From contig NW_021827902.1 in NCBI RefSeq assembly GCF_006345805.1, forward strand, positions 1 through 9,550: a DNA stretch of 9,550 nt. The letters are read 5' to 3'. Every line of letters begins with the position of its first letter. Position 1 is the first letter of the stretch. Positions 223 to 8,619 of the stretch are shown one piece after another. This DNA comes from Octopus sinensis. Lineage: Eukaryota. A program made the position numbers and the translations under genes. Below the pieces are notes generated by a model. It was not told the DNA's origin. It searched no databases and saw only the letters and a list, made by a program, of their open reading frames with translations.

Positions 223-800
223 CTTTTCTACTCTAGGCACAAGGCCCGAAATTTTGGGGAGGGAAACAGCCGATTAGATCGACCTCGGTACGCAACTGGT
301 ACTTAATTTATCAACCCAGAAAGGATGAACGACAAAGTCGACCTCGGCGGAATTTGAACTCAGACGTAAAGACAGACGAAATACCTGTTTCTTTACTACC
401 CACAAGGGGCTAAACACAGAGAGGACAAACAAGAATAGACAAAGGGATTAAGTCGATTACATAGACTCCAGTGCGTAACTGGTCCTTATTTAATCGACCC
501 CGAAAGGATGAAAGGCAAAGTCGACCTCGGCGGAATTTGAACTCAGAACATAGCGACAGACGAAATACCTATTTCTTTACTACCCACAAGGGGCTAAACA
601 CAGAGGAGACAAACAAGGACAGACAAACGGATTAAGTCGATTACATCGACCCAGTGCGTAACTGGTACTTAATTTATCGACCCCGAAAGGATGAAAGGCA
701 GAGTCGACCTCGGCGGAATTTGAACTCAGAACGTAGCGGCAGGCGAAATACGGCTACGCATTTCGCCCGGCGTGCTAACGATTCTGCCAGCTCGCCGTCT
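223..800 (-). mobile_element. Trimeric tRNA-derived SINE (family A; octopus-type) with 17-bp TSD
   Basis: Three ~183-bp units (gtcgacctcggcggaatttgaactcaga at 337, 520, 703). The minus-strand head ggcgagctggcagaatcgttagc is A-box-like and gagttcaaattcc is B-box-like. The direct repeat taactctggtaaatatt lies at 206-222 and 801-817. Confidence 0.9.
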
Positions 801-1626: not shown

Positions 1627-1693
1627 GTCCTGGCATGGTTGTTTATGGAAGACCAGCAGTCACCTATGCATACCAGTCTCCCCTCTCCGCACC
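1627..1693 (-). mobile_element. SINE family C, right piece of the interrupted copy (5'-truncated)
   Basis: ggcatggttgtttatggaagaccagcagtcacctatgcataccagtctcccctctcc is nearly identical to 1778-1834. Confidence 0.85.
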
Positions 1694-2601: not shown

Positions 2602-2653
2602 ATAATCTAAACATAAATTGCGAGTATAACTTTTTCAAGGTGTTCCTTCCATA

Positions 2654-2818
2654 TAGGTGTAGGCATGGCTGTATGGTCAAAAGTTTGCTTCCCAACCGCA
2701 TGGCTGTGGGTTCAGTCCCACTGCGTGGCACCAAGGAGAAAGGTTTTCAAACATAGCGCCGGGTCGATCAAAGCCTTGTGAGTTTGGTAGACAGAAACTA
2801 AATGAAACCTGGTTGTGT

Positions 2819-4488: not shown

Positions 4489-4506
4489 GAATAAATAGAT
4501 ACTATA

Positions 4507-4665
4507 GGTGCAAGCATGGCTGCGTGGTAAGGAGTTTGCTCCCCAAGCACATGGTTCCGGGTTCAGTCCCATTCCGTGGCACCTTGGTCAGGTGTTTTCT
4601 ACTATAGCTTCGGGCCGACCAAGGCCTTGTGAGTGGGTTTGGTAGACAAAAACTGAAAGAAGCCC

Positions 4666-5402: not shown

Positions 5403-5485
5403 CATATATATATGAGTGTGTGTCTGTGTGTATGTTTGTGCATGTAGATAGAAGGAGGGACAGGCAAACAGGCAGACAGGCAGAT

Positions 5486-5575
<90 letters not shown>

Positions 5576-5576
5576 G

Positions 5577-5656
<80 letters not shown>

Positions 5657-5657
5657 C

Positions 5658-5718
<61 letters not shown>

Positions 5719-5725
5719 TAGATAG

Positions 5726-5756
<31 letters not shown>
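5327..5756 (+). repeat. Compound microsatellite: (CA)n, (TA)n, (TG)n, (GACA)n, then ~230 bp of (GATA)n
   Basis: Directly visible. Confidence 0.97.
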
Positions 5757-5823
5757 CTAAATCGAAAATTAAAAATAACAAAACAACGAAAGTCAAAAGG
5801 ACGTACACGTGGAATGTGTTAGG

Positions 5824-5880
5824 TTGACGCTCAGTATAAGATGGGTGCATAGACGTTCCGAGCATGGCTCTTCGTCAGAA
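5824..5880 (-). ncRNA. Degenerate minimal type I hammerhead ribozyme-like motif (Penelope-associated type), probably inactive in this copy
   Basis: Minus strand reads UU-CUGACGA-A-GAGC(CAU)GCUC-GGAA-CGUC...GAGC-GUC-AA: intact CUGANGA, perfect 4-bp stem II, GAAA changed to GGAA, stem III base ACG/CGU, GUC triplet, and only 2 bp of stem I. Confidence 0.55.
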
Positions 5881-6133
5881 AGAGAAGAAAGGAAAGGTCT
5901 AGAGAAGGAAAAAAAAGAAAGTCCAAGAAACCGTGTGTGGTTACATGGATCATGGATAAGGTAATCGAAAGTGGAGAGAGATATAGATTTTTTAAGGTAG
6001 GAAAATGTGAAAATGACCTATGTGTATGTGTGTGGTAGTATCTATATGCATGTGTTAGTGTTTGTGTGAATGATGTGTGGGTAAAGGCGTAGTTTCGAAC
6101 AGGTCAGCCGCAGTTCGGTTTAGTGGTGAGAGG

Positions 6134-6136
<3 letters not shown>

Positions 6137-6169
<33 letters not shown>
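6137..6169 (+). repeat. (TA)n microsatellite
   Basis: Directly visible; similar tracts at 2105-2118, 6580-6600 and 7727-7790. Confidence 0.95.
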
Positions 6170-7519: not shown

Positions 7520-7594
7520 ATGACAGTGAATTAGTTTGAGAATAAACTCCGGTCCCGAGATTTCAAATACAAAAACAATAAAATTAATGTGACA

Positions 7595-7726
7595 TAGACG
7601 CAGGCATGGCTATGTGGTAAGAAGTTTTTACTTCCCAAACACATTGCTCCACGTTCTGTTCTACTACGTGGCACCTTCGTTAAATGTCTTCTATTATAAC
7701 TCCTTTGTCAGAGGATTTGGTAGACG
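7595..7726 (+). mobile_element. SINE family B 5' part (diverged), followed by (TA)n
   Basis: gcaggcatggctatgtggtaagaagttt...cgtggcacctt...ggatttggtagac is collinear with 4507-4646. Confidence 0.8.
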
Positions 7727-8080: not shown

Positions 8081-8086
<6 letters not shown>

Positions 8087-8268
8087 AGTGCTGAAAAGTT
8101 CCTGGTTGGGGATCCAGCCTTCCAAGTTCTTTTACAGGGCTTAGAAAAATTGAAGGACCGCTGCAATAAGTGTGTGAATCTGAGAGGAGAACATGTTGAA
8201 TAAAATTATCTGATCCTCCGGCATTTTCTTTTACCCAAAACCAGGAACTTGTCTCTGCACCCTTCGTA
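8081..8268 (+). mobile_element. Internally deleted mariner (Tc1/mariner) element retaining the transposase C-terminus
   Basis: TA at both ends. Left TIR gtgctgaaaagttcctggtt compares with the right TIR reverse complement gtgcagagacaagttcctggtt. Encodes GLEKLKDRCNKCVNLRGEHVE* (stop at 8201-8203), matching the mariner C-terminal pattern GIxKLxxRxxKCxxxxGxYVE. Confidence 0.88.
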
Positions 8269-8619
8269 TAAATATATATGTATTTATATAATATAAATAT
8301 TTATCCAATATTTGCACCCTATTAGCTATAACTTTATCATGTGCTTCGAGATCCATTGTTAAAAAAACGGGGAAGAATTATCTCACATCCTCGCAAAGTT
8401 TATAAATTCTTATGACGTCATGTGTGCGCGCGTGTGTGTGTACATACATACATAGAACATAATCGATATATGTTTGTTAATACATAAAAGACAGGAGAAC
8501 TCAGTACTTGTTCGGTGCAGTTTGATATTATATAATGTACTAACGGTGATGAAGTTGTTTGCCTCATATGATGACAATGGCATATTTTCACGAAACGATT
8601 CTTAGCTCTACTAGTTGAC

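What the first reader, a model, noticed from the sequence alone, without database searches (positions are those of the whole stretch)
5760..6136. Hammerhead ribozyme-like core in a non-coding segment between two microsatellites: candidate Penelope-derived or retrozyme-like element
Seen on the minus strand (5880 to 5824): CUGACGA, one extra A, a perfect GAGC/GCUC hairpin, GGAA in place of GAAA, stem III closing ACG/CGU, and a GUC triplet (predicted cut between 5826 and 5825). The order is exactly that of a type I hammerhead, but stem I is only 2 bp. Established: minimal hammerheads occur in the terminal repeats of Penelope-like elements and in non-autonomous retrozymes, an extra nucleotide after A9 is tolerated, and A13 is essential. 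Inference: this ~375-bp segment bounded by (GATA)n and (TA)n is a decayed copy of a ribozyme-bearing non-autonomous retroelement, with active relatives elsewhere in the genome.
Basis: partly seen in the sequence, partly recalled or inferred. Interest (0 to 1): 0.75.

Follow-up and report, generated by a model that had tools for sequence, protein, structure and literature searches.

The report
Penelope retrotransposons shedding hammerhead core bases
This 379-base piece is the broken-off tail of an old Penelope-type jumping gene, and its hammerhead (self-cutting RNA) motif carries a mutation that is predicted to kill it; younger sister families have spread to thousands of copies after changing core hammerhead bases, so cutting is likely not needed for them to jump.

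Summary
The motif is there as described (minus strand, 5878-5826) and the GGAA is real. The segment is a dispersed repeat; 29 of 29 aligned relatives have A at position 13, so the change is decay of this copy. It is the 5'-truncated 3' end (pseudo-LTR plus part of the 3' UTR) of a protein-coding Penelope-like element: relatives carry GIY-YIG/RT remnants upstream on the same strand (13 of 29 loci against 0 of 60 control flanks), and 5.7-6.3 kb sister elements carry the motif at both ends of an RT+GIY-YIG frame. It is not a retrozyme: no tandem monomers were seen. Hammerheads in Penelope ends are known. The new part lies in sister lineages: exact motif counts are 3,008 canonical, 6,852 with U4C and 13,318 with A6U, and a nested lineage that includes both open 1008-codon frames adds U16.1C. 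Helix I is 2-3 bp at most, Rfam finds no hammerhead, and cleavage is untested. The scan has noted other Penelope/hammerhead families in this genome before; none of the 8 notes shown (218 fit) describes this family or the stepwise loss.

The parts
5757..6135 (-). 5'-truncated 3' end (part of the 3' UTR plus pseudo-LTR) of an old Penelope-like retrotransposon family; non-coding
   Evidence: about 10% from the family majority; no similarity to the PLE protein anywhere in the window
6010..6135 (-). CA-rich 3' UTR portion (left bound approximate); in longer relatives it continues upstream for about 0.5 kb to the end of the GIY-YIG frame
   Evidence: L092, L093, L104, L120
5872..5878 (-). hammerhead core C3-A9 (CUGACGA)
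   Evidence: U4 29 of 29, A6 29 of 29, C3 28 of 29 in relatives
5860..5871 (-). unpaired A after A9 (5871), then helix II GAGC/GCUC with a 3-nt loop
   Evidence: unpaired A in 29 of 29; the extra base is a described trait of PLE hammerheads (PMC4209133)
5856..5859 (-). G12-A15.1 with the copy-specific A13G at 5858
   Evidence: 29 of 29 relatives have A; genome-wide 74 GGAA against 9,860 GAAA motifs
5826..5856 (-). helix III (ACG/CGU, one more U-G pair possible), a 22-nt loop and the GUC triplet; predicted cut between 5826 and 5825
   Evidence: U16.1 27 of 29, C17 25 of 29; cutting untested
5757..5825 (-). 3' tail to the family's shared 3' end
   Evidence: most relatives end at this place and run into simple repeats; L002 and L004 run on for a further shared ~170 nt
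5482..5756 (+). (AGAT)n microsatellite at the element's 3' end; likely insertion target
   Evidence: target role inferred
6136..6169 (+). (AT)n microsatellite at the truncation point; likely insertion target
   Evidence: target role inferred

Best explanation
The segment is the 5'-truncated 3' end of an old Penelope-like retrotransposon, likely written into a microsatellite by the element's own reverse transcriptase and GIY-YIG endonuclease, and its hammerhead motif has since taken an A13G change that is predicted to inactivate it. Shown: family membership, linkage to RT/GIY-YIG coding sequence, a canonical core in the family majority, and that A13G is specific to this copy. Inferred: copying started at the family's fixed 3' end and stopped after 379 nt; the parent's motif was a weak type I hammerhead (helix I 2-3 bp, helix III 3-5 bp around a 20-35 nt loop) that would cut only with help from the element's protein, as reported for the anole element PAc; this copy has no function.
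For: Multi-copy with a shared 3' end and variable 5' ends. GIY-YIG remnants lie upstream on the same strand in L092 and L093. Reciprocal test: of 29 loci found with a bait that does not overlap the segment, 14 match the segment on the same strand, 13 of them downstream of the bait; control 0 of 60 flanks of 1.4 kb. L104 and L120 run from RT through GIY-YIG to the window-type end. 6 of 10 fetched sister regions have the motif at both ends, 5.7-6.3 kb apart, 95.5-99.4% identical, and 2 hold a 1008-codon open frame. That protein has 659 homologues at E<=1e-20; of the 120 listed most carry PF00078 and about 25 carry PF01541. Family majority is canonical at all 12 core positions. A second family keeps core, extra A and GAAACG...CGUC with a different helix II (1,551 exact copies).
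Against: No Rfam hammerhead hit. The hammerhead fold lies 9.7 kcal/mol above the best fold for this copy and 3-8 kcal/mol above it for the family majority and three relatives; helix III probability is 0.03 or less in all five. No full-length copy of the window's own subfamily was recovered: the link to RT rests on decayed pieces. Direct Pfam support for the 1008-codon protein is weak (RVT_1 E 7e-4, below cut-off, 1 of 2 proteins) and the PDB search found nothing. Some of the 13 reciprocal hits (L106, L119, L122) look like sister subfamilies, not the window's own. No usable RNA data for this copy.
Confidence: 0.88

Rival explanations
1. Non-autonomous retrozyme or SINE-like element: a short unit that is transcribed, cut, circularised and copied by a borrowed RT.
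For: Most copies are short (150-400 nt) and lack coding sequence within 1.5 kb; a preprint argues that animal retrozymes derive from PLE ends (10.64898/2026.07.22.740005, part 1 of 5 read).
Against: 5' ends vary and longer copies run into GIY-YIG coding sequence. Among 60 young loci only 4 (3 distinct places) have a second same-strand motif within 1.5 kb; in the two looked at base by base (L035, L044) simple repeats or other sequence lie between the copies. Retrozymes are defined by tandem units with canonical hammerheads (PMC7229834 passages).
Confidence: 0.06
2. The motif is hammerhead-derived but no longer catalytic in any of these families, the window's parent included; it is kept as a protein-binding or folding element, perhaps a switch in which the downstream UGAGC pairs with the 3' strand of helix II.
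For: No usable helix I in the four families inspected; fold not favoured; U4C, A6U and U16.1C fixed in amplifying lineages; the downstream UGAGCG is kept across the GAGC families though helix III needs only part of it; cleavage mutants did not affect insertion in vitro for PAc (PMC11167929 passages).
Against: C3, G5, G8, A9, G12, A13, A14 and A15.1 are kept in all families seen (partly by construction of the patterns); U4C is tolerated in a viroid and changes at 6 and at 15.1/16.1 leave low activity (PMC3088659 passages); the family with the other helix II shows no matching downstream switch sequence (by eye). This rival does not conflict with the element's identity, only with catalysis.
Confidence: 0.35
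3. Chance resemblance to a hammerhead in simple-repeat DNA.
For: 7 of 200 shuffles give the loose pattern; no Rfam hit; folding z-scores -0.25 to -1.73.
Against: 3,008 exact canonical motifs with 0 in the reversed control; 88 structure-aware hits in 531 kb of motif-enriched loci against 0 reversed; position in both terminal repeats of full-length elements; helix II replaced but paired in another family.
Confidence: 0.01

Closest known systems
Minimal hammerheads in pseudo-LTRs of metazoan Penelope-like elements (Cervera and De la Pena 2014, PMC4209133; parts 1-2 of 4 read)
   Same: Type I order; extra base between A9 and G10.1; G10.1-C11.1 pair; sits in both terminal repeats; mostly single copies from truncated elements; predicted low activity.
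   Different: Helix II is 4 bp (7-8 in Schistosoma); helix I is 2-3 bp (4-5 there; 2 in D. virilis); loop III is 20-35 nt and not a short palindrome, so dimer folding would add nothing (inference); the lineage-fixed U4C, A6U and U16.1C are not in the text read, which reports only U3-A8.
Neptune/Nematis-type EN+ PLEs (PMC8557442, passages)
   Same: RT then C-terminal GIY-YIG; C-x4-C-x2-C linker in L083; pseudo-LTRs; 5' truncation; insertion in (TA)n.
   Different: About 3 kb CA-rich 3' UTR in the young family (about 1 kb in the window's family); clade not placed on a tree with named references.
PAc (Poseidon) of Anolis carolinensis (Frangieh et al. 2024, PMC11167929, passages)
   Same: PLE end with a hammerhead; AT-rich targets. 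Its protein-assisted cutting, dispensable for insertion in vitro, is the model used here.
   Different: There the hammerhead overlaps the start codon and has a recognisable stem I; here it lies about 270 nt before the open frame.
Metazoan non-LTR retrozymes (PMC7229834 passages; bioRxiv 10.64898/2026.07.22.740005 part 1 of 5)
   Same: Short, non-coding, type I motif, PLE-related.
   Different: No tandem units, no canonical helix I/II contacts, no evidence of circles; linked to coding sequence.

Membership tests
EN+ Penelope-like element | Single frame with RT and C-terminal GIY-YIG endonuclease | tested here: met
   1008-codon frames in L082, L083; homologues with PF00078/PF01541 (that PF01541 is GIY-YIG is recalled); decayed RT-to-GIY-YIG pieces upstream of window-type ends. 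Absent from the window copy itself.
EN+ Penelope-like element | Pseudo-LTRs (partial tandem) holding the hammerhead motif | tested here: met
   6 of 10 fetched sister regions; for the window's subfamily only a short shared run-on in L002 and L004
EN+ Penelope-like element | 5' truncation, fixed 3' end, AT-rich or microsatellite targets | tested here: met
Neptune clade | Zn-finger-like linker between RT and EN (shared with Nematis) | tested here: met
   C-x4-C-x2-C read in the L083 translation; not checked in the window's own subfamily
Neptune clade | Placement in the RT tree with named members | not tested
   no named reference sequences were on hand
Type I hammerhead ribozyme | Core C3-A9, G12-A15.1, U16.1, H17 | tested here: not met
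   window copy has A13G; met by the family majority and, with helices II and III, by 7 of 29 relatives, one of which has a 2-nt core insertion
Type I hammerhead ribozyme | Helix II with G10.1-C11.1, supported by covariation | tested here: met
   present; paired but different sequence in a second family; no compensatory change looked for or seen within the window's family
Type I hammerhead ribozyme | Stable helices I and III, fold accessible | tested here: not met
   helix I 2-3 bp; helix III probability 0.03 or less; fold 3-10 kcal/mol above the best; no Rfam hit
Type I hammerhead ribozyme | Self-cleavage at the NUH site | not testable with these tools
   only contigs were available
Non-LTR retrozyme | Head-to-tail tandem units of 150-450 nt, each with a hammerhead | tested here: not met
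   none in the window or in 90 loci
Non-LTR retrozyme | No link to coding sequence | tested here: not met
Non-LTR retrozyme | Abundant circular RNA | not testable with these tools
   searches gave no usable RNA data

The most novel reading that the evidence does not exclude
In this genome the Penelope hammerhead has been losing catalysis step by step while the elements kept jumping: an old canonical form (the window's family), then U4C, then U4C plus U16.1C in the youngest lineage with open frames, and separately A6U, with C16.1 again in part of that lineage. The altered forms outnumber the canonical ones about four to one among the exact motifs counted. This is a natural allelic series showing that the conserved part (helix II, GAAACG, UGAGCG) serves as a protein-binding or folding element and that cutting is dispensable in vivo.
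Probability: 0.4. Interest if true: 0.62.

Novelty: new variant of a known kind. Interest (0 to 1): 0.38.

Why it matters
The copy itself is ordinary debris. What the hammerhead does for Penelope elements is an open question: it is nearly universal in them, weak in vitro, and was dispensable for insertion in the one reconstituted system. Here lineages with canonical, U4C, U4C+U16.1C and A6U cores exist side by side in hundreds to thousands of copies, with near-intact proteins for the most altered one, so cleavage, protein binding and insertion can be compared directly. Standard hammerhead searches would miss most of these motifs.

Tried and rejected
Rfam scans of the window and of the segment: no hammerhead. 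A 31-nt exact pattern for the window's subfamily found 1 copy, showing only that the subfamily is old. Pfam and PDB searches of the 1008-codon protein were nearly blank; the protein atlas gave no answer. The run search was swamped by microsatellite words: RNA rows shared 0.10 or less; one guessed-RNA run held no contig of this copy, which proves nothing. Idea that A-to-I editing of A15.1 rescues cutting at GCC sites (inosine 15.1 allows NCH cutting: PMC8879150 passages; Ludwig 1998 seen as a title only): no A>G at that place in contigs of 3 guessed-RNA runs, and one contig runs across the predicted cut; contigs drop rare variants, so this is unsupported, not excluded. Idea that the pyrimidine tract before the core is a splice acceptor: no joints listed. 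Type III reading with an upstream cut site: no helix I partner found by eye. Core positions mismatch less than other positions among copies (10 of 288 against 842 of 5,344 at non-CpG sites), but this is confounded by search bias and poor alignment and was not used. That canonical cores are only CpG-decayed U4C cores was rejected for the window's family (U4 29 of 29) but likely holds for some young copies (2 of 30 fall inside the U4C group), so 3,008 overstates the canonical lineage.

Full report
Observation. The loose pattern alone is weak (7 of 200 shuffles), Rfam gives no hammerhead at E up to 10 and the predicted fold is another one. Contigs of two public runs match the copy with no difference (one study, possibly the source).

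Family. The 379 bases between the two microsatellites are a dispersed repeat in a 2.72 Gb genome: 695 candidates, 40 scored, all hit. The host is probably an octopus; that rests on recalled repeat families and on earlier scan notes, not on a tool label. In an alignment with the 29 best relatives (30 of 41 matches were fetched) A13 is A in 29 of 29, U4 and A6 are 29 of 29, and most other departures sit at CpG sites. The window copy is about 10% from the majority; the median Jukes-Cantor distance of relatives is 0.17. Genome-wide the GGAA form occurs 74 times, this copy included, against 9,860 GAAA forms. A13G is therefore decay after insertion. That A13 is needed for cutting is established knowledge; PMC3088659 lists it in the consensus core.

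What the repeat belongs to. Copies share a 3' end followed by simple repeats and start at varied places. The two longest relatives carry the end of a GIY-YIG frame about 0.5 kb upstream of the matched part, on the same strand. Using that upstream stretch as bait, 14 of 29 new loci match the window segment on the same strand, 13 downstream of the bait, against 0 of 60 control flanks; L104 and L120 run from RT to the window-type end. A coding fragment beside a young copy led to full-length sisters: 6 of 10 regions have the motif at both ends, 5.7-6.3 kb apart and 95.5-99.4% identical, and two hold a 1008-codon open frame with RT motifs, a C-x4-C-x2-C linker and a GIY-YIG-type end. Its homologues carry PF00078 and in part PF01541, though direct Pfam and PDB support is poor. 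The segment is thus a 5'-truncated end of a Neptune-like Penelope element. No tandem monomers were seen in 90 loci, so it fails the retrozyme test.

How it likely works. Inferred from the anatomy and from PAc (PMC11167929): the element's endonuclease nicked AT-rich simple-repeat DNA, its RT copied the RNA from the fixed 3' end and stopped after 379 nt. The parent's motif had a canonical core but helix I of 2-3 bp and helix III of 3-5 bp around a long loop. The hammerhead fold lies 9.7 kcal/mol above the best fold in this copy and 3-8 above it in the family majority and three relatives, so any cutting would need protein help. This copy is predicted to be dead.

Sister lineages. Exact counts, each with 0 in the reversed control: canonical 3,008, U4C 6,852, A6U with a 4-nt loop 13,318, and a canonical family with another helix II 1,551. 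These are counts of single patterns, not of families, and favour young copies. The A6U family is also PLE-linked (4 of 30 loci have GIY-YIG upstream); 16 of its 30 sampled copies have C at 16.1. In trees of the ends, with positions 4 and 16.1 masked in the young rows, 29 of 30 U4C copies group with 2 canonical ones (96/90), and the 7 copies with U4C plus U16.1C form a nested group (100/99) with short branches; both open frames fall in that group (unmasked). The bootstrap had not settled, the samples are the first 30 hits on one contig, and the root rests on the window's family as outgroup. The changes are therefore inherited from master elements, not decay. Whether they abolish cutting is open: U4C is tolerated in a viroid and changes at 6 and 15.1/16.1 leave low activity (PMC3088659).

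Comparison and novelty. Hammerheads in Penelope ends, mostly as lone truncated copies, are described (PMC4209133). Penelope expansions in an octopus are described without mention of ribozymes (PMC13282606). Searches for hammerhead with octopus, for U4C or A13G and for core variants in Neptune elements found no account of these families or of lineage-fixed core changes; the library lacks most subscription papers, and supplements of PMC4209133, PMC8557442 and the preprint, which may list such motifs, were not seen. Papers seen: PMC4209133 parts 1-2 of 4; 10.64898/2026.07.22.740005 part 1 of 5; passages of PMC8557442, PMC3088659, PMC11167929, PMC13282606, PMC8879150 and PMC7229834; Ludwig 1998 as a title only. 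Earlier scan notes describe other Penelope/hammerhead families in this genome.

Verdict. Real feature, known kind, dead copy. Interest comes from the surrounding lineages, which give a ready test of what the Penelope hammerhead is for. Interest 0.38.

Noticed in passing
window 271-751: 2.6 tandem copies of a 183-bp unit, 89% alike; looks like a common SINE-type repeat (recalled).
   Followed up: no
window 2652-2807, 4503-4658, 7594-7725: Three copies of a second dispersed repeat, about 75% alike, each followed by simple repeats; tRNA-derived SINE-like (recalled).
   Followed up: no
window 8081-8270: About 185-bp stretch with imperfect terminal inverted repeats between simple repeats; MITE-like, read by eye.
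   Followed up: no
window 1627-1688 and 1773-1834: 62-nt direct repeat, 90% alike, 146 bases apart.
   Followed up: no
L044 1101-1145 and L028 downstream flank: Another hammerhead-like motif with GAAAC before CUGAUGA (permuted order); earlier scan notes describe permuted hammerheads in this genome.
   Followed up: no
L083 5160-8150, L082: The young full-length elements have a 3 kb CA-rich 3' UTR that holds a conserved GC-rich island of about 200 nt.
   Followed up: no
L092 5939-7000: A second, more distant Penelope-like RT/GIY-YIG piece (31% to the L083 protein) 4.5 kb upstream of the window-type element.
   Followed up: no
L035/L138, L044, L053, L082, L103, L107: Ends of different subfamilies often sit within 0.3-1 kb of each other on the same strand, suggesting that older copies and their microsatellites are targets for later ones.
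   Followed up: partly
L002 and L004 downstream of the motif: A shared run-on of about 170 nt beyond the usual 3' end, resembling the leader of the young element: two stop points, as in the PLE 'tail'.
   Followed up: partly
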